From assembly GCF_013167455.1 (NCBI RefSeq), contig NZ_CP038328.1: a stretch of DNA of 64,000 nt; one strand, given 5' to 3'. The DNA is from Escherichia coli O157:H7. GTDB lineage: Bacteria; Pseudomonadota; Gammaproteobacteria; Enterobacterales; Enterobacteriaceae. Position 1 is the first letter of the stretch, and the number at the start of each line of letters is the position of its first letter. The notes beneath the pieces were generated by a model. The model worked only from the letters and a program-made list of their open reading frames with translations, was not told the DNA's origin and ran no database searches. A program made the position numbers and the translations under genes. Positions 9,876-58,140 of this stretch are shown piece by piece.

Positions 9876-10070
9876 ATGAGATATGACGATGTTAAACCAT
9901 GTCCGTTTTGTGGTTGTCCATCTGTTACGGTGAAAGCAATTTCAGGATATTACCGGGCAAAATGCAACGGATGCGAATCCCGAACTGGCTATGGTGGAAG
10001 TGAAAAAGAAGCACTCGAAAGATGGAATAAACGAACTACTGGAAATAATAATGGAGGTGTTCATGTATAA
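9876..10070 (+). CDS. ralR: RalR (restriction alleviation; type I toxin with DNase activity)
   Basis: 64 aa MRYDDVKPCPFCGCPSVTVKA...; Cys-rich. Confidence 0.75.
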   Translation: MRYDDVKPCPFCGCPSVTVKAISGYYRAKCNGCESRTGYGGSEKEALERWNKRTTGNNNGGVHV

Positions 10071-10251
10071 AATAACTGCCACTATTGAAAAAGAAGGTGG
10101 CACTCCTACTAACTGGACAAGATATTCAAAATCTAAATTAACGAAATCAGAATGCGAAAAAATGCTCTCAGGGAAAAAAGAAGCAGGCGTGTCCAGAGAG
10201 CAGAAAGTAAAGCTGATAAATTTTAATTGCGAGAAACTTCTGTCCTCGTGA
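10063..10251 (+). CDS. ydaC: YdaC-like small prophage protein
   Basis: about 62 aa MYKITATIEKEGG...; start uncertain (alternative ATG at 10051). Confidence 0.55.
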   Translation: MYKITATIEKEGGTPTNWTRYSKSKLTKSECEKMLSGKKEAGVSREQKVKLINFNCEKLLSS

Positions 10252-14552: not shown

Positions 14553-14674
14553 AAAAAAAAGCCGACTCATCAAAGTCGGCGTCGTACGAATCAATTGTGC
14601 TATGCAGTAATTCAAAAAAGGAAGTAAGACAATATGGAGCGCAACGCCCATCGCTTGACGTTGCATTCACCTGC
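14553..14674 (-). ncRNA. fnrS: FnrS small RNA
   Basis: minus-strand sequence GCAGGTGAATGCAACG...CGCCGACTTTGATGAGTCGGCTTTTTTTT matches my recollection of FnrS; intrinsic terminator; zntB-dbpA intergenic. Confidence 0.8.
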
Positions 14675-18051: not shown

Positions 18052-18145
18052 ACCGGCGCAGAGGAGACAATGCCGGATTTAAGACGCGGATGCACTGCTG
18101 TGTGTACTGTAGAGTCTGGCGGATGTCGACAGACTCTATTTTTTT
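18052..18145 (+). ncRNA. mcaS: McaS (IsrA) small RNA
   Basis: ACCGGCGCAGAGGAGACAAUGCCGGA...AGAGUCUG-GCGGAUGUCGA-CAGACUCU-U7 matches my recollection of McaS; candidate promoter TTGGCA-17-TTATAA upstream; abgR-smrA intergenic. Confidence 0.7.
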
Positions 18146-18153
18146 ATGCAGTT

Positions 18154-22851: not shown

Positions 22852-23178
22852 ATGACTAAAAATACTCGTTTTTCCCCCGAAGTCCGTCAGCGGGCGATTC
22901 GTATGGTTCTGGAAAGTCAGGATGAATATGACTCACAGTGGGCGGCAATTTGTTCCATTGCCCCAAAGATTGGCTGTACGCCGGAGACTCTGCGTGTCTG
23001 GGTTCGCCAGCATGAGCGGGATACCGGGGGCGGTGATGGTGGGCTCACCAGCGCTGAACGTCAGCGTCTGAAAGAGCTGGAACGTGAAAATCGTGAACTG
23101 CGCCGCAGTAACGATATCCTTCGCCAGGCTTCCGCTTATTTTGCGAAGGCGGAGTTCGACCGCCTCTGGAAAAAATGA
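22852..23178 (+). CDS. IS3-family OrfA (HTH plus leucine zipper)
   Basis: 108 aa [22 protein letters not shown]...; ends at A-AAA-AAT slippery region. Confidence 0.9.
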
Positions 23179-23828
23179 TGCCACTGCTGGATAAGCTGCG
23201 TGAGCAGTACGGGGTCGGACCGGTATGCAGCGAACTGCATATTGCCCCGTCAACGTATTACCATTGTCAGCAACAGCGACATCATCCGGATAAACGCAGT
23301 GCCCGTGCGCAGCACGACGACTGGCTGAAGAGAGAGATACAGCGCGTATACGATGAAAATCATCAGGTGTACGGTGTGCGTAAAGTCTGGCGTCAGTTGT
23401 TACGGGAAGGAATCAGGGTGGCCAGATGTACAGTGGCACGTCTCATGGCGGTTATGGGACTTGCCGGTGTTCTCCGGGGTAAATGGGCCCGTCGTCCGTC
23501 TGGCACCATCCATCACAGCGATAAAGGCTCTCAGTATGTGTCACTGGCCTATACGGAGCGACTAAAAGAAGCCGGATTACTGGCATCAACAGGGAGTACA
23601 GGCGACTCGTATGACAACGCGATGGCTGAGAGCATCAATGGTCTTTACAAAGCGGAGGTAATACACCGTAAGAGCTGGAAAAACCGTGCAGAAGTGGAAC
23701 TGGCCACACTAACGTGGGTGGACTGGTATAACAATCGACGATTGCTGGGAAGGCTGGGCCATACTCCTCCGGCAGAAGCAGAAAAAGCTTATTATGCTTC
23801 CATCGGAAACGATGATCTGGCAGCCTGA
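23175..23828 (+). CDS. IS3-family OrfB transposase, internally deleted (first DDE Asp missing)
   Basis: 217-aa ORF; retains HSDKGSQY and DNAMAES motifs but no W..D.TY motif upstream. Confidence 0.75.
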
Positions 23829-51132: not shown

Positions 51133-51760
51133 TGAGGTTCACCCGTTTCCTGGTCAGCAGAATGACAGCGAAAATAATGATGAAGAGCACCACCGAGATC
51201 GCCGCCGCTTTCCCTAAGTCATTAAAGGCAAAGGCGGTTTTGTAGAGATAGACACCAAGAATATCGACCTTGGTTGTCAGCAGATAAACATCCGCGAACA
51301 TGTAGAACATCCAGATGGTGCGAAGGGTCACCACCGTCGCCAGGACCGGCATAATCGCGGGCAGCGTGACGATACGAAACCGTTGCCAGGCATTAGCGCC
51401 ATCCATCTCTGCCGCTTCGTACAGCGATTTGTCGATGGTCTGCAAAATCGCCAGAAACGAGATAAAGGCATACGGGAAGTAGCGCCAGATGGCGAAGATC
51501 ACCACCAGCACAAAACTACTGCCCGGATTATCGAACCACAGCGGTGCCTGCTCATAAAGATGCAGAAGATCGACGCCGAGGTAGTTCACAATGCCGTAGC
51601 CGTTGTTGAACATGTATTTCCAGGCGAACACCAGCGAAATAGACGGCGTTACGTAGGAGAGGATCACCAGCGAACGCGCGGTTTTGCGCAGGCGGAACTC
51701 GCGGTTGAAAAACATCGCCACTGCCAGCCCGAGCACGGTGCTGCCCGCCACCACCAACGC
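51119..51760 (-). pseudogene. ycjO: ycjO ABC transporter permease, 5'-truncated by prophage insertion
   Basis: permease frame is open from the stop at 51119 up to ~51760, then phage-end sequence; no start codon or N-terminal segment present. Confidence 0.8.
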
Positions 51761-51777
51761 GTGTAACCAGGTGAATC

Positions 51778-51936
51778 ATTTGATACCGACAAGGGTTTTA
51801 GTGAAAGGAGGTGAAATCACCTGTAAGATGCTGAAATAAAACAGGTGATGTATACTTCGGACGGAAAACTCTTTTTGATACCGACTGCTCAACAAATAGT
51901 CAAAAGATCAAAAAACGGCGACACATTTGATACTGC
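51778..51936 (+). repeat. candidate transposase end-binding sites (attL-type direct repeats)
   Basis: TTTGATACCGAC at 51778 and 51873, TTTGATACTGC at 51925. Confidence 0.5.
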
Positions 51937-52117
51937 TAATTTACCCTTAAAATCTTCTTCAAAACATCTTCAAACTGCCAAAATGCTCACATAATCGATC
52001 TAACTATAATCAGTATGATAATCATCATGAATTACTATTCAATAGCGTGATTATCTTGGGATGAGTCATATGATCTCTATATGTATTTACAGCACCACCT
52101 CATGATAGCGATGGCGC

Positions 52118-52729: not shown

Positions 52730-52885
52730 ATAACCCCCTATAAAACAAAGAAATTATCAACATCGCATTTAATTTCGATGTGCTCGCAAAAAACCGTTGA
52801 TATCGAATTATTTTGCGATTATGATTTACCTAAATCGATAACCGGTTTTGATTATCGGTTCAGGTAAACATGAGAGGATCACACA
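52730..52885. promoter_or_regulatory. repressor/ner divergent operator-promoter region
   Basis: repeated GATTAT/CGATAA motifs and inverted repeat CGATAA-N10-TTATCG between divergent regulators. Confidence 0.45.
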
Positions 52886-53162: not shown

Positions 53163-55253
53163 ATGTGGGTAACAGCAAAAGAATGTGTTGGTCTTCCTGA
53201 TTTACCAATGATGGAACATAACATTCGCCATCGACTCACAAAAGCAGCTGCGGGAAATGCAGCCATGTTACGCAAACGTAAGGGGACAAAAGCAATCGAA
53301 TTTAATATCGATTGTTTGCCTTCTGGCGCGCAACAAGTATTGCGTGAACGTTATGCCCTTCAACTGATGACGCAAAAAGCTGATGAATCACCGGCTCCGG
53401 TGGTGACAAAGGCCAGACGCTCGCCTGCCGTGGTTGATGCGGTGGAGGCATATCGCGGATCACCACAACTGATGGTTGAACGCCTTAATGCCCTGACTGA
53501 AAACCAGCGCCAGGTGGCTGATGCACGAATCGCGATCGTCAGCGAAGTGATGAAAGTCGCGCAACAACCCGGTTTCAGCTGTGCGAAAGCTATCCGGTTT
53601 ATCGTTGACAACCTGGCACGTTCGCAACTGGACGAGCGCATTGTGGCAATGGTTGAGACGGCGAACGCCAAAAAGGGAAACAGCCGTGCGTTGAGTGAAA
53701 TAACGCTGAAACGCTGGATTGCGGCCTTTAACAAGGCGCAGAACGCCGCTGAACGCCTGCTTTTACTGGCACCGGGTAAGCGCCAGGAAATAAAAGCCGA
53801 AGATATTAACTGGCTGCCCGAATTTCTGGCGCAGTATCGCCAGTCAAACGGCCGACCAATGACCGAGGCTTACGAGGATTTTGTCGCTGAATGGCAGCAC
53901 CGGCACGCTGATGAGCCTTATATGCTCGATATCATGCCGTCTTATGACACCATTCGCCGCGCAATGAAGAAACTGCCGGAAGTGGTGAAACAAAAAGGCC
54001 GGGTGACCGGCAGTGAATACCGCCAGCTTGAGGGATTCACGCGCCGCGACTGGTCCAGAATGCCGGTGAATTATGTCTGGATTGGTGACGGTCACGGCAT
54101 GAAGCTGAAATGCGCACACCCGGTTCACGGTCGGCCATTTGCACCGGAAGTGACCTTTGTTATCGACGGTGGCACGCGCTTTGTGGTGGGCTGGAGCCTT
54201 GACCTGGCTGAAAATGTTTTCGCCGTAGCCGGTGCCATACAGCACGGCATTCGCCATCACGGCAAACCGTTTCTGTATTACTCGGATAACGGCTCCGGGG
54301 AAACCGCCGACATCCTGGATAAGGAGGTTGTGGGGATACTGCCGCGACTGGGGATTAATCACCCGACCGGGATTGCCGGTAATCCGCAGGGACGAGGCAT
54401 TATCGAACGGCTTAACCGCACATTACCGATGCGCATAGCCCGTAAATACCGCACCTATTTCGGGAAAGGTGCAGATCGCGAGACGTTACGCAAAACCAAC
54501 CGCGATTTACGCTCGGCATTTACTGCCCTGCAACAGGGCAAACGGCTGAACGCCCGGCAGCAGTCAGCGATGCGTGATTTACCGTCCTGGTCTGAACTGA
54601 TTGATGCCATTCGTGACGGTGTTGAGTGGTACAACAACCGGCCGCACGATGAATTACCGGTGAAGCCGAACGGCAAGCATTACAGCCCGGCGGAGTTCAG
54701 AAAAAAACGCCTGGCGGAAGAGGACACGGAAATTGAATGGCTGTCCGATGTTGAGCTGCGGGATATGTTCCGGCCGATGGTGGAACGCCCTGTAAGACGC
54801 TGTGAAATACGCTGGCTGAATAATATTTACTACGCGCCCGAGCTGCGTGACGAGCATGGTCGTAAGGTGCTTATCAGCTATGACATTCATGATGCCGAAC
54901 GAATTACCGTACGTCGCCTGGATGGCAGCGTGATTTGCGAGGCGGTATGGGACGGTAATAAACGCGAAGCCTTCCCGGTTAGCGCGGAATACTACAAACA
55001 GCAGCAACGCCTTAAAGGCATGCGTAAACGCGCAGAGGAAAAAATCCGTGATGCCGAGGATGAGGTTGTCAACGTGCTGGAGCACAAGCCGCAGGAGCCC
55101 TGGCTGGAAAACATATACCGCCCTGTGGGTAATACGGTGACCGTTCAGCAACCGGTCGCTGACGATGAACCTGATGAAGAATACGAGCGTAATTTCCAGC
55201 GGGGATTGCAGTTGCTGGAAGCGAAATTAAAAGAAAATGACCCGCTGGCCTGA
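53163..55253 (+). CDS. MuA-like DDE transposase
   Basis: 696 aa; N-terminal W..KEC..LP..P like Mu A; candidate DDE residues in WIGDGHG, YYSDNGSG, IERLNRT. Confidence 0.9.
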   Translation: MWVTAKECVGLPDLPMMEHNIRHRLTKAAAGNAAMLRKRKGTKAIEFNIDCLPSGAQQVLRERYALQLMTQKADESPAPVVTKARRSPAVVDAVEAYRGSPQLMVERLNALTENQRQVADARIAIVSEVMKVAQQPGFSCAKAIRFIVDNLARSQLDERIVAMVETANAKKGNSRALSEITLKRWIAAFNKAQNAAERLLLLAPGKRQEIKAEDINWLPEFLAQYRQSNGRPMTEAYEDFVAEWQHRHADEPYMLDIMPSYDTIRRAMKKLPEVVKQKGRVTGSEYRQLEGFTRRDWSRMPVNYVWIGDGHGMKLKCAHPVHGRPFAPEVTFVIDGGTRFVVGWSLDLAENVFAVAGAIQHGIRHHGKPFLYYSDNGSGETADILDKEVVGILPRLGINHPTGIAGNPQGRGIIERLNRTLPMRIARKYRTYFGKGADRETLRKTNRDLRSAFTALQQGKRLNARQQSAMRDLPSWSELIDAIRDGVEWYNNRPHDELPVKPNGKHYSPAEFRKKRLAEEDTEIEWLSDVELRDMFRPMVERPVRRCEIRWLNNIYYAPELRDEHGRKVLISYDIHDAERITVRRLDGSVICEAVWDGNKREAFPVSAEYYKQQQRLKGMRKRAEEKIRDAEDEVVNVLEHKPQEPWLENIYRPVGNTVTVQQPVADDEPDEEYERNFQRGLQLLEAKLKENDPLA

Positions 55254-55324: not shown

Positions 55325-56257
55325 ATGACTGATATTAACGATGTAATCAAGACCATTGATGAACTTATTGATGGCGGCGTACTGACGCAGTATGCCATCG
55401 CCAGAGAGGCGGGAATTTCCGACGGCACATTATCGGCTTTCCGTAAGGGAAAATATAAAGGCGATAACGCTGCTGTGGCTGCTTCCCTGCGTTCCTGGTA
55501 TGAGAACTGGAATAAACAAAGCGCACTGCCGGAACCGCCGCAGTTTGTGGAAACGCAGACAGTCCAGGAGCTGCGCGCACTGTTTCAGGCGGTTCGTCTG
55601 ATGGGCTGTATTAACGTTATTGTGGGCGTACCGGGTGTGGGTAAAACGGCCACTGCCCGTAATTACTGCCAGGAGCAACCAAACACCTGGATGATCACCC
55701 TGTCACCCGCGCACTCCAGCGTCACGGAGTGTCTGCTGGAGCTGGCCGATGCGCTGGGGATTGATTACACCCGCGCGAACAAAGGGGCATTATCCCGCGC
55801 CATCCGCCGTCGCCTGACGGGAACGCGTGGACTGGTTATTGTGGATGAGGCGGATCATCTTGGTATTGACGGTCTGGAGCAACTCCGGGCAATTCAGGAC
55901 GCCACGGGGATCGGGATGGTGCTTATTGGTAACCCGCGCGGATTGTTTAAAGGTGGACGCCGCACCTTTGATGATTTATCGCGCCTGTTCAGCCGTCTTG
56001 CCCGTACAAAACAACTTCGCAAGGCCAAAAAGGCGGATGTGCTGGCCATTGCCAGGGCGTGGGGGATCAGTGGTGAGGCCGAGCTGGCCGTCATGCAGGC
56101 TATCGCTGAAAAGCCGGGAGCGTTACGCGTTCTGACACATACGCTTAACCAGGCGTGGCTCACCGCCAGCGGTGAAGGCGCGGCGCTGACAGAAAAACAT
56201 ATTAATGCGGCCTTTAAAGAGGTTTATACCAACCCTGAATTACTCTCACAGGTGTGA
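55325..56257 (+). CDS. MuB-like AAA+ target DNA activator
   Basis: 310 aa; Walker A GVPGVGKT, Walker B VIVDEADHL; LPEPPQFVETQTV resembles Mu B. Confidence 0.9.
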   Translation: MTDINDVIKTIDELIDGGVLTQYAIAREAGISDGTLSAFRKGKYKGDNAAVAASLRSWYENWNKQSALPEPPQFVETQTVQELRALFQAVRLMGCINVIVGVPGVGKTATARNYCQEQPNTWMITLSPAHSSVTECLLELADALGIDYTRANKGALSRAIRRRLTGTRGLVIVDEADHLGIDGLEQLRAIQDATGIGMVLIGNPRGLFKGGRRTFDDLSRLFSRLARTKQLRKAKKADVLAIARAWGISGEAELAVMQAIAEKPGALRVLTHTLNQAWLTASGEGAALTEKHINAAFKEVYTNPELLSQV

Positions 56258-56481: not shown

Positions 56482-56748
56482 ATGAGGTGTTATATGAATA
56501 TGCAATCCTGCGGTAACAAAATGAATTTATTCGACTCCCTGAACAGCGCGCGCCGTCTGACCGAACTTGCCGGTGCGGTACTGGAACGCAGTAAGCGCTA
56601 TCCGCAACGTTTTGCACTGAAAACCACGCCGCCGGTAGGCAACGTGCAGGGAACCGGTGAAATTGAAATCACCATACAGACCAACGGCCTGCGCCGCCGT
56701 GTGAAGGCCACCCGCATCAGCGGCTGCACGGTTTACTGGGAGGTGTGA
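56482..56748 (+). CDS. hypothetical Mu-like early protein
   Basis: 88-aa ORF in tightly packed operon. Confidence 0.5.
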   Translation: MRCYMNMQSCGNKMNLFDSLNSARRLTELAGAVLERSKRYPQRFALKTTPPVGNVQGTGEIEITIQTNGLRRRVKATRISGCTVYWEV

Positions 56749-56749
56749 G

Positions 56750-57031
56750 GTGAAAAAAAATCTCATTGCATGGGCGTGGTCGAGTGGTCTTATTGAGTTT
56801 GGTTACGTCCTGCCGGAAGGTGCATTGCCGATAGTTGCCGGAAAGCCTGCCACGGTACGGCATGTGATTGAGGTTATGGCGCGTCATGGACGTGATGAAC
56901 AGGAGCAGTTACTGGTTCCGGGGATACCGGAAGCGGTGACGGAGGAAGAAGCCTTTAATGCCATGATTCGGTTCTGCCGTGAGGTCAGACGCCGGGTCAG
57001 TTATCCAAACAGAACGAGGACCAGAGGATGA
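56750..57031 (+). CDS. hypothetical Mu-like early protein
   Basis: 93-aa ORF. Confidence 0.5.
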   Translation: MKKNLIAWAWSSGLIEFGYVLPEGALPIVAGKPATVRHVIEVMARHGRDEQEQLLVPGIPEAVTEEEAFNAMIRFCREVRRRVSYPNRTRTRG

Positions 57032-57300
57032 GTAAAGTCGTACGCATTATTTTCGAATACAAGGAGCACGTTATCCATAAAAACGCTGATGGAACAGTGC
57101 GCATGGGGGTAAGTCTGGACATACGTTCAACCGGGATAAAGCAGAAAGGTGATGGACCCGCCATGATTTTTGGGGTGGTTATGCTCGCGGAAAGCAGAGA
57201 CTTTGCTGAACTTGTGGCAATGAAAGCCAGTGCGCTCATGAAAGATATGAGCATGCGTTCCGGGGTTATTAAAGGTAATGAATTTAATCAGCAGGGGTAA
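57028..57300 (+). CDS. hypothetical Mu-like early protein (paralog pair, copy 1)
   Basis: 90 aa, begins MSKVVRIIFEYKEHV. Confidence 0.5.
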   Translation: MSKVVRIIFEYKEHVIHKNADGTVRMGVSLDIRSTGIKQKGDGPAMIFGVVMLAESRDFAELVAMKASALMKDMSMRSGVIKGNEFNQQG

Positions 57301-57304
57301 TTCC

Positions 57305-57598
57305 ATGAGCAAAGTACGCGTTATTTTTGAATTTAAGCATGTTTCGCATGACGAAAAACCGGCAGGCAATGACTGTGTTGAAGTGCATGAAAAGATTGGT
57401 GTGGATGTAAAAACAGAACGTGATACGAATAACAGGCCGACGTCACTCTGTGACGTTTATGCAAGTATTCTCCAGTATCACAGTCCTGAAATTATTCAGT
57501 TTCTCTCAGCGGAATTTCAGGCATCTGTACAGGCTTTTGGGGCGGATGCCATCATTAAACGCCACCGCGTGCATAAAGCATCAGGCACACTGCAATAA
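57305..57598 (+). CDS. hypothetical Mu-like early protein (paralog pair, copy 2)
   Basis: 97 aa, begins MSKVRVIFEFKHV. Confidence 0.5.
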   Translation: MSKVRVIFEFKHVSHDEKPAGNDCVEVHEKIGVDVKTERDTNNRPTSLCDVYASILQYHSPEIIQFLSAEFQASVQAFGADAIIKRHRVHKASGTLQ

Positions 57599-57609
57599 GG
57601 AAAAACAAA

Positions 57610-58140
57610 ATGGCAAAACGCGTTACAAAATTAAAGGCCGCAGCAGAGGCGGCACCGCAGACCCGTGAAGAGGTCAGCCGCGATATCCGCACCCTGGGCG
57701 ATATTCAGCGAGAGGCGCTGCGCCTGGAAACAGCGATGAATGATGAAGTGGCAGAAATCACCGCCCGTTATACGCCGCAGATTGAAAACCTTAAAAAAGA
57801 AATCAAAGTGCTTTTTAAGGGGATTCAGGACTGGTGCAAAACCAACCGTGATGAGCTGACGAACGGCGGCAAAACCAAAACTGCCAATCTGACCACCGGA
57901 ACGGTGTCATGGCGACTGGGGAATCCATCATGCAGCGTCAGTCGTGATGTGGAAGGTGTGATTGAAATGCTGCGCCGTATGGGCCTTGAGCGTTTTATCC
58001 GCACGAAAGAGGAAGTGAACAAGGAAGCGGTCCTGGCGGAGCCGGATGCGGTGAAAGGGATTGCCGGTATTAAGGTGAATAAAGGCGCTGAAAGTTTTTA
58101 TGTCGAGCCTTTTGAACAGGACGCCGGACTGAATAAATAA
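57610..58140 (+). CDS. gam: Gam-like host-nuclease inhibitor (DNA end-binding)
   Basis: 176 aa; extensive similarity to Mu Gam as recalled (RLETEMND...ANRDELTNGGK.KTANL.TG.VSWR). Confidence 0.9.
   Translation: MAKRVTKLKAAAEAAPQTREEVSRDIRTLGDIQREALRLETAMNDEVAEITARYTPQIENLKKEIKVLFKGIQDWCKTNRDELTNGGKTKTANLTTGTVSWRLGNPSCSVSRDVEGVIEMLRRMGLERFIRTKEEVNKEAVLAEPDAVKGIAGIKVNKGAESFYVEPFEQDAGLNK

What the first reader, a model, noticed from the sequence alone, without database searches (positions are those of the whole stretch)
57028..57598. Tandem pair of small early genes sharing only their N-terminus
Two adjacent ORFs begin MSKVVRIIFEYKEHV and MSKVRVIFEFKHV and then diverge completely. This suggests duplication followed by divergence or a recombination that exchanged C-terminal parts, within the Mu-like semi-essential region.
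Basis: seen in the sequence. Interest (0 to 1): 0.25.

Follow-up and report, generated by a model that had tools for sequence, protein, structure and literature searches.

The report
Tandem Gnarl2-like early phage genes
Two neighbouring small early genes of a Mu-like E. coli prophage are very diverged copies of one hypervariable phage accessory gene family, whose only studied member (Mu E6/gp7, "Gnarl2") alters the host O-antigen; this is a tidy but fairly ordinary case of phage gene mosaicism.

Summary
ORF1 (57028-57300, 90 aa) and ORF2 (57305-57598, 97 aa) begin MSKVVRIIFEYKEHV / MSKVRVIFEFKHV. Direct comparison finds nothing beyond about residue 35. Both are real genes: dN/dS is about 0.3, and they occur in 231 of 5426 complete E. 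coli genomes.

They lie in the early operon of an Sp18-type Mu-like prophage, between kil and gam. Profile comparison shows they are not unrelated beyond the N-terminus. An 85-aa Mangrovibacter prophage protein bridges the ORF1 family, the ORF2 family, a second allele type in the Mu gp7 slot, and Mu gp7 itself. The bridge covers nearly full length, and the C-terminal halves alone also match it.

Mu gp7 (E6/Mup07) is "Gnarl2", which down-shifts O-antigen and sensitises wild E. coli to T5. Its target is unknown.

The shared leader of about 13 codons is the family's most conserved strand. It also coincides with sharp mosaic boundaries: ORF1 and ORF2 alleles assort independently, and close and distant relatives carry one copy, always ORF2-type.

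Best reading: two divergent alleles of one accessory gene stacked in tandem. Function is inferred, not shown. Interest is modest.

The parts
57028..57300 (+). ORF1, 90 aa (RefSeq WP_000049432.1, 'hypothetical protein'; phrog_4107). The divergent, lineage-specific member of the gp7/Gnarl2-like superfamily.
   Evidence: ORF and translation. PHROG match E 1e-61. RefSeq annotation. dN/dS about 0.30 over 20 alleles. Against superfamily profile S: prob 96%, E 3.8e-9, 75 columns. Against the bridging protein L119p: E 1.2e-5, 68 columns. The AF2 model has low confidence (pLDDT 55): hairpin 4-18/24-38, helix 57-73.
57305..57598 (+). ORF2, 97 aa (WP_000049304.1, 'hypothetical protein'; phrog_2230). Counterpart of the single-copy gene found in related Mu-like prophages and in the gp7 slot of some Mu-type phages.
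   Evidence: dN/dS about 0.35 over 22 alleles. AF2 pLDDT 84, pTM 0.67: beta-hairpin 4-21/24-39 plus helices 48-58 and 60-77. Against the Muvirus 'MAKVIFEFN' alleles: prob 98%, E 7e-14, 75 columns. Distant representatives P0065 and P0067-70 align full length.
57028..57078 (+). Shared N-terminal leader of ORF1 (codons 1-17, MSKVVRIIFEYKEHVIH). Forms beta-strand 1 and coincides with a mosaic junction.
   Evidence: Identity between alleles drops after about 57040-57070.
57305..57349 (+). Shared N-terminal leader of ORF2 (codons 1-15, MSKVRVIFEFKHVSH). Forms beta-strand 1 and coincides with a mosaic junction.
   Evidence: Window vs L044 is about 100% identical up to about 57340, then 50-76% until gam. 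Third-position diversity is low in codons 1-15.
56750..57031 (+). Upstream 93-aa gene ('p1518', phrog_1518). Its TGA stop overlaps the ORF1 ATG (ATGA), indicating translational coupling.
   Evidence: In single-copy relatives the same gene is ATGA-coupled to the ORF2-type gene. It is reduced to its last 22 codons in a subset of prophages.
56494..56748 (+). kil-like gene (phrog_2679), left landmark of the variable slot.
   Evidence: PF26843 Kil_protein is recorded in related loci.
57610..58140 (+). gam (Phage_Mu_Gam), right landmark of the slot. It starts 11 nt after the ORF2 stop.
   Evidence: Pfam PF07352, E 1.5e-41. 57% identical to Mu Gam.
52797..52825 (+). Candidate early promoter (TTGATA-17-TATGAT), between the divergent repressor-like gene and the ner-like gene. 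It would drive the operon that contains both ORFs.
   Evidence: Consensus scan only, which found no more sites than in shuffled sequence. Gene layout. This is a weak, positional inference.

Best explanation
ORF1 and ORF2 are two very diverged members of one family of small (83-98 aa) early accessory proteins of Mu-like transposable phages. The family occupies a hypervariable slot between kil (and its small neighbours) and gam. In phage Mu itself this slot holds E6/gp7 (Mup07), named Gnarl2.

Shown here. Both are real protein-coding genes under purifying selection. They are co-oriented and tightly packed in the early operon: ATGA overlap with the upstream gene, a 4-nt gap between them, and 11 nt to gam. 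They share a conserved N-terminal beta-hairpin. Most related prophages carry one copy, of the ORF2 type. The first ~13 codons are the best-conserved part of the whole family and coincide with sharp recombination boundaries. ORF1 and ORF2 alleles assort independently.

Inferred. The fold is a beta-hairpin packed against two helices; this is confident for ORF2 only. The helical halves of ORF1 and ORF2 are homologous, but this is supported only through one bridging sequence. The tandem pair arose by stacking two divergent alleles, with the local leader retained on ORF1, rather than by a recent in-place duplication.

Inferred function. Like Gnarl2, they would be non-enzymatic binders of host proteins made early after induction. 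The most likely target is O-antigen/LPS synthesis, which would change the cell surface. The variable helical body would set which host variant is targeted, so two bodies would widen the range of host strains affected.
For: Reality of the genes: dN/dS 0.30 and 0.35. The region is present in 231 of 5426 complete E. coli genomes, and 225 cover at least 80% of it. Both match PHROG families.

Homology:
- ORF1 family vs ORF2 family: E 3e-6 to 4e-7, up to 74 columns.
- Bridging protein L119p (Mangrovibacter) vs Mu gp7 family: prob 95%, E 3e-8, 84 columns. Vs ORF2 family: 92%, E 7e-7, 80 columns. Vs ORF1 family: 81%, E 1.2e-5, 68 columns.
- C-terminal halves alone vs the L119p C-half: scores 18.8, 18.3, 20.6 and 20.0 (ORF1 family, ORF2 family, Mu gp7 family, Muvirus MAKVIFEFN alleles), against nulls of about 9+-2. 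None of 100 shuffles reaches any of them.
- ORF1 family vs superfamily profile S: prob 96%, E 3.8e-9. Mu gp7 family vs S: 83%, E 9.5e-6.
- Mu gp7 hits ORF2's phrog_2230 at E 0.009.

Slot and copy number.

Mosaic boundaries and independent assortment.

The leader is constrained at protein level: its differences are synonymous or conservative, and the motif V-x-V-I-F-x-F-E is kept with other codons in distant homologs.

The same 'N-terminus only' pattern occurs between the two allele types in the gp7 slot of Mu-type phages: 13 aa, E 6e-5.

Function of the characterised member: orf63 = gnarl2 = NP_050611.1 = Mup07. It down-shifts O-antigen bands and raises T5 infection 10^5-6-fold in ECOR1 and ECOR22. 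The target was not identified (PMC12373910).
Against: Direct profile comparison of Mu gp7 with either family is not significant: E 0.14-0.5, prob below 1%.

With the hairpin removed, ORF1 and ORF2 show no direct similarity. Against profile S without the bridging sequence, the ORF1 C-half is not significant (E 0.04, not colinear). Full-length homology therefore rests largely on one bridging protein family with 4 known members.

Foldseek of the ORF2 model against BFVD (predicted viral structures) returned no significant match, and Mu gp7 was not among the matches listed.

No functional data exist for ORF1 or ORF2. Even for Gnarl2, the natural role and target are unknown.
Confidence: 0.6

Rival explanations
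1. A conserved N-terminal beta-hairpin module is joined to unrelated C-terminal helical modules. The two genes would then share only the N-terminus because recombination at the leader swapped in a non-homologous body.
For: There is no direct similarity once the hairpin is removed. Mosaic boundaries lie at the leader. In Mu-type phages two allele types at one slot likewise share only 13 residues. Other genes starting MAKVIFEF have quite different bodies (L139, L155, L156).
Against: The C-halves of all four families match the C-half of one bridging protein colinearly, at E 7e-4 to 2e-3, with 0 of 100 shuffles reaching the score. By my count from the sequences, the spacing from the conserved Pro after the hairpin to the Gly after helix 2 is 31-32 residues in four of the subfamilies, and ORF1 has Ser at the corresponding position. 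Lengths are alike, 83-98 aa.
Confidence: 0.2
2. A recent tandem duplication occurred in place, and the upstream copy (ORF1) then evolved very fast everywhere except its first strand.
For: The genes are adjacent, co-oriented and similar in length. The ORF1 leader resembles the local ORF2 leader (12 identities, including non-structural residues) more than the leaders of other subfamilies do. ORF1 was found only in E. coli.
Against: The ORF2 body is much closer to gp7-slot genes of a different phage genus (E 7e-14) than to ORF1. ORF1 alleles themselves evolve under purifying selection at an ordinary rate, dN/dS 0.30. The ORF1 body is closest to the Mangrovibacter protein.
Confidence: 0.12
3. The repeated 5' segment is conserved as a nucleic-acid element, for example a translation-control site, an sRNA target or a recombination site, rather than for the peptide it encodes.
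For: Third-position diversity is lower in codons 1-15 of ORF2 than further along the gene: 0.10 against 0.22-0.30. The segment is a 24-nt direct repeat, and recombination junctions map to it.
Against: Most differences between the two leaders are at synonymous or conservative positions. Distant homologs keep the peptide motif with different codons. The upstream regions of the two genes are unrelated. There is no Rfam match in the region. The low synonymous diversity is also what recombination junctions in identical sequence would produce.
Confidence: 0.05
4. The N-terminal similarity is due to chance.
For: The pairwise BLASTP E-value is only 9e-4 for one comparison. A reader scanning many ORF pairs makes many implicit comparisons.
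Against: Profile E-values are 1e-5 to 4e-7. The motif is conserved in every family member, including homologs with 26-30% overall identity. The genes are adjacent and the match is at the exact N-terminus of both.
Confidence: 0.01

Closest known systems
Gnarl2 = phage Mu E6 / gp7 / Mup07 (NP_050611.1), from Silas et al., Nat Commun 2025;16:7828 (PMC12373910)
   Same: A small protein (87 aa) encoded in the early operon of a transposable phage, in the variable slot between kil and gam. It has a leader of the same type (MAKVIIEIKN...). It is linked to both ORFs through the bridging protein (E 3e-8) and profile S (E 9.5e-6), and to ORF2's PHROG at E 0.009.
   Different: Direct profile comparison with ORF1 or ORF2 is not significant. 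Mu has one copy, whereas this prophage has two. The flanking small genes differ: Mu has gp6, gp8 and gp9, while here there is p1518 and nothing between ORF2 and gam. The O-antigen phenotype has been shown only for Mu gp7.
'MAKVIFEFN...GPHD...APEII' alleles in the gp7 slot of Mu/D108/SfMu-type prophages (unnamed; 'hypothetical protein')
   Same: Clear full-length homologs of ORF2: prob 98%, E 7e-14. They occupy the same slot and are about the same size (89 aa).
   Different: They belong to a different phage genus, are single-copy, and are not detectably similar to ORF1 (E 0.1).
PHROG families phrog_4107 (ORF1) and phrog_2230 (ORF2), both 'unknown function'
   Same: Both ORFs are full-length members: E 1e-61 and 1e-40.
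   Different: PHROGs treats them as two unrelated families. The link between them, and to phrog_10252 (Mu gp7), is not recorded there.
Mosaic gene-boundary recombination in temperate phages, as described for lambdoid phages (from general knowledge; no paper was read for this here)
   Same: Sharp transitions between near-identical and strongly diverged sequence, located at a short conserved segment. Neighbouring modules reassort independently.
   Different: Here the conserved segment lies inside the coding sequence, in the first ~13 codons, and it is repeated in tandem. It can therefore also mediate gain or loss of a copy.

Membership tests
Gnarl2 / Mu E6 (gp7) family | Direct sequence homology to Mu gp7 (NP_050611.1) | tested here: not met
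   hhalign of the Mu gp7 family (A5) vs the ORF2 family (A4) gives E 0.34, and vs the ORF1 family (A1) E 0.14, both with prob below 1%. Single-sequence tests are also not significant. The only direct hint is Mu gp7 vs phrog_2230 at E 0.009.
Gnarl2 / Mu E6 (gp7) family | Indirect (transitive) homology through intermediate sequences | tested here: met
   L119p vs A5: E 3e-8 over 84 columns. Vs A4: E 7e-7. Vs A1: E 1.2e-5. The C-halves alone each give E about 1e-3, with 0 of 100 shuffles reaching the score. Profile S vs A5: E 9.5e-6. Profile S vs A1: E 3.8e-9. This rests on one small bridging family.
Gnarl2 / Mu E6 (gp7) family | Position: early operon of a Mu-like phage, in the variable slot after kil and before gam | tested here: met
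   The window order is MuA, MuB, small ORF, kil-like, p1518, ORF1, ORF2, gam. The Mu order is A, B, kil, gp6, gp7, gp8, gp9, gam. ORF2-like alleles sit in the gp7 slot of Mu-type contigs.
Gnarl2 / Mu E6 (gp7) family | Small non-enzymatic protein (Gnarl proteins are 40-90 aa) | tested here: met
   90 and 97 aa. No Pfam, NCBIfam or PADLOC domain. No relative among PDB sequences.
Gnarl2 / Mu E6 (gp7) family | Phenotype: expression down-shifts O-antigen bands and sensitises wild E. coli to T5 | not testable with these tools
   Reported only for Mu gp7 (PMC12373910). Testing needs LPS gels and plaque assays.
Tandem paralog pair (one superfamily) | Significant similarity over the N-terminal beta-hairpin | tested here: met
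   After removing 17 residues, the score is 20.0 vs 10.3+-2.5, and 2 of 150 shuffles reach it.
Tandem paralog pair (one superfamily) | Significant direct similarity over the C-terminal helical half | tested here: not met
   Score 9.0 vs a null of 10.0+-2.1. The similarity is only indirect, via L119p.
Tandem paralog pair (one superfamily) | Same fold in predicted structures | tested here: inconclusive

The most novel reading that the evidence does not exclude
The invariant N-terminal strand could be a common docking or oligomerisation element, and the variable helical body a specificity cassette. The tandem pair would then make homo- and heterodimers that target different variants of a host surface-polysaccharide (O-antigen) pathway. 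The repeated leader would double as a built-in site for cassette exchange, gain and loss. The locus would thus be a phage-borne specificity-switching system for host seroconversion, present in EHEC O157 prophages.
Probability: 0.12. Interest if true: 0.6.

Novelty: new member of a known kind. Interest (0 to 1): 0.3.

Why it matters
It links two 'hypothetical' genes to the only characterised member of their family, Mu E6/Gnarl2. These genes are carried by about 4% of complete E. coli genomes (231 of 5426), and among the strains listed many are O157:H7 or from cattle. That gives a direct experiment: test whether they change the O-antigen and phage sensitivity of such strains.

It also shows that three PHROG families filed separately (4107, 2230, 10252) probably form one fast-evolving family. 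The conserved first strand of that family marks the recombination junctions of a hypervariable accessory locus.

This is a useful annotation and a small evolutionary insight. It is not a new kind of system.

Tried and rejected
Domain libraries. Pfam, NCBIfam and PADLOC gave nothing for either ORF. Profile searches against PDB sequences gave only noise.

Sequence searches. The whole-library HMMER search with the ORF2 profile found only 5 distant representatives. It found neither ORF1 nor Mu gp7. ORF1 may be hidden there, because the 90% clustering files it under an ORF2 representative. tblastn against deposited phage genomes found both genes only in two Stx-phage records that carry an inserted Mu-like element.

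Mu gp7 link. Direct profile comparison of Mu gp7 with the ORF1 or ORF2 family was not significant. The link came only from the p1518-anchored locus survey. The 83-aa gene in the same slot of L120-L123 (MAKQVITIVIED...) showed no significant similarity to any of the families.

RNA and signals. There is no Rfam family in the region. There are no convincing internal promoters or terminators on the + strand between 56200 and 58200.

History. I considered ongoing gene conversion between the two leaders. The two leader types stay distinct in all 29 distinct ORF1/ORF2 protein combinations seen. A few ORF1 alleles carry ORF2-like codons (L082, L088), so this remains undecided. I could not decide whether the single-copy prophages (L087, CI5) are ancestral or deletion products.

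Full report
**1. What is there**

The window from about 52 kb onward is a Mu-like transposable prophage. A 621-base query around the finding matches E. coli 13E0780 at 100%. It is found in 231 of 5426 complete E. coli genomes, and many of the strains listed are O157:H7 or cattle isolates. Among deposited phage records it occurs only as a 'Mu-like phage' inserted in two Stx phages.

The + strand gene order is:
- MuA, 53163-55253
- MuB, 55325-56257
- a 75-aa ORF
- a kil-like gene, 56494-56748
- a 93-aa gene here called p1518, 56750-57031
- ORF1, 57028-57300
- ORF2, 57305-57598
- gam, 57610-58140
- homologs of Mu gp11 and gp12

The genes are tightly packed. The p1518 stop overlaps the ORF1 start (ATGA). 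Four bases separate ORF1 from ORF2, and eleven separate ORF2 from gam. No + strand promoter-like or terminator-like site lies inside the stretch, and no Rfam family matches there. Both genes are annotated 'hypothetical protein' in RefSeq. PHROGs files them in two separate families of unknown function, phrog_4107 and phrog_2230.

**2. The observation**

The two N-termini are as reported. BLASTP aligns only residues 1-17 with 1-15: 12/17 identical, E 9e-4. At DNA level there is a 24-nt direct repeat at 83% identity. Most differences between the leaders are synonymous or conservative (AGT/AGC, TTC/TTT, CAC/CAT, ATT/GTT, TAC/TTT).

Family profiles extend the match through the second beta-strand: E 1e-5, columns 1-34 vs 2-38. 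A deeper ORF2 profile extends it to 66-75 columns, E 3e-6 to 4e-7.

Column-shuffle controls define the limit. Without the first 17 residues the score is 20.0 against 10.3+-2.5, and 2 of 150 shuffles reach it. Without the first ~35 residues it is 9.0 against 10.0+-2.1, which is no signal. Direct similarity is therefore real, and it is confined to the N-terminal beta-hairpin.

**3. Both are genuine genes**

Twenty ORF1 and 22 ORF2 full-length DNA alleles from related prophages give dN/dS of about 0.30 and 0.35. Frameshifted and truncated variants also exist. So does an in-frame deletion fusing ORF1 residues 1-49 to ORF2 residues 79-97 (P0036). The genes are therefore dispensable in the prophage state.

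**4. Structure**

ORF2 is modelled with good confidence (pLDDT 84, pTM 0.67) as a long beta-hairpin (4-21, 24-39) followed by two helices (48-58, 60-77).

The ORF1 model is poor (pLDDT 55). It shows the same hairpin (4-18, 24-38) and a helix at 57-73, which lines up with ORF2 helix 2 in the profile alignment. It has a short strand where ORF2 has helix 1.

**5. Copy number and mosaicism in relatives**

In about 40 IMG/VR contigs of this prophage type, the order kil - p1518 - ORF1 - ORF2 - gam is the rule.

ORF1 alleles are 80-100% identical to the window. ORF2 alleles fall into two classes, 91-100% and about 60%. All four combinations of ORF1 and ORF2 allele types occur, so the two genes recombine independently.

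Pairwise identity plots show sharp boundaries:
- Window vs L044 is about 100% identical through ORF1 and up to about codon 12 of ORF2. It then falls to 50-76% until the start of gam, where it returns to 100%.
- Window vs L077 falls from 100% to 70-90% after about codon 5-14 of ORF1, and recovers at the ORF1/ORF2 junction.

Single-copy prophages exist:
- E. coli CP022279 (L087) has kil - p1518 - one gene - gam. Its codons 1-6 look like the ORF1 leader and the rest like ORF2.
- Strain CI5 and L045 have the ORF1-type upstream sequence joined to an ORF2 class-B gene.
- More distant prophages have a single ORF2-like gene of 26-30% identity, starting MSNKVQVIFTFE. It is ATGA-coupled to the p1518 homolog, exactly as ORF1 is here.

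No ORF1-only prophage was found. The one locus in which only ORF1 was detected (L083) carries a frameshifted ORF1 and ends just after it, so it says nothing about ORF2. The single copy is always ORF2-type, and ORF1 is the extra, lineage-restricted gene.

**6. Link to Mu gp7 and to each other**

A scan anchored on p1518 found an 85-aa protein starting MAKVIFEFK in a Mangrovibacter prophage (L119p). It bridges everything at nearly full length:
- vs the Mu gp7 family: prob 95%, E 3e-8, 84 columns
- vs the ORF2 family: prob 92%, E 7e-7, 80 columns
- vs the ORF1 family: prob 81%, E 1.2e-5, 68 columns

With the hairpin removed from both sides, its C-half still matches the C-half of each family. The scores are 18.8 (ORF1), 18.3 (ORF2), 20.6 (Mu gp7) and 20.0 (the Muvirus alleles described next). 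E ranges from 7e-4 to 2e-3, and no score is reached by any of 100 shuffles.

Searching with L119p, and with its leader as a DNA pattern, found a further family of 89 aa: MAKVIFEFN...GPHD...APEII. It sits in the gp7 slot of Mu/D108/SfMu-type prophages. It is an unambiguous ORF2 homolog: prob 98%, E 7e-14. Yet it shares only its first 13 residues with Mu gp7, its allelic alternative at the same slot (E 6e-5).

A combined profile S (L119p, these alleles and the ORF2 family) matches the ORF1 family at prob 96%, E 3.8e-9, 75 columns. It matches the Mu gp7 family at prob 83%, E 9.5e-6.

There are caveats. Direct comparison of Mu gp7 with ORF1 or ORF2 is not significant. C-half homology weakens when L119p is left out of the profile. 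The bridging family has only four known members.

I put full-length homology of ORF1, ORF2 and Mu gp7 at about 0.7. Homology of the hairpin is close to certain.

**7. Function**

Mu gp7 (E6/Mup07, NP_050611.1) is orf63, 'gnarl2', in Silas et al. (Nat Commun 2025, PMC12373910; bioRxiv 10.1101/2023.04.06.535777). Expressed in wild E. coli ECOR1 and ECOR22, it down-shifts the O-antigen bands and raises T5 infection 10^5-6-fold. AP-MS gave no clear target. The authors propose that small Gnarl proteins alter host O-antigen synthesis without being enzymes, possibly for superinfection exclusion or to stop progeny binding to debris. I found no other study.

By homology and position, the most likely role of ORF1 and ORF2 is the same kind of early, host-directed binder. 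This is inference only. The high allelic diversity of the body, the strain-specific effect of Gnarl2, and the stacking of two very different bodies fit a specificity-cassette idea, but nothing here tests it.

**8. History**

The ORF2 body is much closer to genes of another phage genus than to ORF1. ORF1 evolves at an ordinary rate. The single-copy state is widespread. The ORF1 leader resembles the local ORF2 leader more than any other.

The simplest account is that a divergent allele body was added next to the resident gene by recombination in or near the conserved leader, and the repeated leader then allows copy loss. Whether the L087- and CI5-type single-copy prophages are ancestral or deletion products could not be decided.

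The leader is conserved at protein level: the peptide motif is kept with different codons in distant homologs. The reduced synonymous diversity in ORF2 codons 1-15 is what recombination junctions in identical sequence would give.

**9. Verdict**

The pair is a new, remote member-pair of a known kind: the Mu E6/Gnarl2 accessory family at a mosaic, hypervariable early locus. Interest is modest (0.3). The result gives a clear annotation link and a simple experiment, not a new mechanism.

Noticed in passing
protein database; concerns window 57028-57598: The 90%-identity protein clustering files the exact ORF1 sequence (90 aa) and the exact ORF2 sequence (97 aa) in the same cluster, with an ORF2 sequence (P0042) as representative. 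The two are alike only in their first ~15 residues. ORF1-type proteins may therefore be hidden in representative-based searches, so their absence from the whole-library search is not informative.
   Followed up: partly
L127-L135, L137-L159 (gp7 slot of Mu/D108/SfMu-type contigs); Mu NC_000929 4784-5047: In true Mu-type phages the gp7 slot holds two alternative allele types: Mu gp7 (MAKVIIEIKN...) and an 89-aa MAKVIFEFN...GPHD...APEII type. They share only the first 13 residues (E 6e-5). This is the same pattern as the finding, but between alleles rather than neighbours.
   Followed up: partly
window 56750-57031; L015, L018, L019, L032, L033 and others; L003: The upstream 93-aa gene (phrog_1518, labelled 'host nuclease inhibitor' in PHROGs) is cut down to its last 22 codons in a subset of otherwise similar prophages. 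In L124 and L125 its homolog carries an N-terminal CxxC...CPRCG zinc-ribbon-like extension. That extension resembles Mu gp6, which occupies the same position in Mu.
   Followed up: no
L119 1228-1485 and 1495-1749 (IMGVR_UViG_2751185697_000003, Mangrovibacter): In the Mangrovibacter prophage the gp7-like gene lies before the p1518 homolog instead of after it. A DUF3164-type gene replaces gam downstream, as it also does in L004 and L115-L118.
   Followed up: no
P0036, P0051, P0053, P0055, P0061, P0062; L083, L086: Many natural frameshifted or truncated variants of both genes exist. There is also an in-frame deletion fusing ORF1 1-49 to ORF2 79-97 at a short FG/TTTGG match. The locus tolerates loss in the prophage state.
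   Followed up: partly
window about 51266-51943 (from L002 267-944) and 52193-53162: In the identical E. coli 13E0780 locus, the prophage left end abuts a truncated type VI secretion gene, icmH/dotU, annotated as missing its C-terminus. The Mu-like element has apparently inserted into a T6SS cluster. A divergent repressor-like gene and a ner-like HTH gene follow.
   Followed up: no
window 4755-5220, 10069-10247, 14557-14674, 18052-18147, 23133-23249: Rfam matches at gathering score elsewhere in the window: DicF, isrK and C4 antisense RNA clustered at 4.7-5.2 kb; RalA (the antitoxin sRNA of RalR); frnS; McaS; and an ALIL pseudoknot (an IS3-type frameshift element). These suggest another prophage or cryptic-prophage region and an IS element upstream of the Mu-like prophage.
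   Followed up: no
L139, L155, L156: Three viral contigs carry genes that start with the identical octapeptide MAKVIFEF but continue with quite different, apparently all-helical bodies (71 and 104 aa). By my rough estimate, fewer than one such match is expected by chance in the collection. Whether they are related to the family or lie in Mu-like phages was not checked.
   Followed up: no
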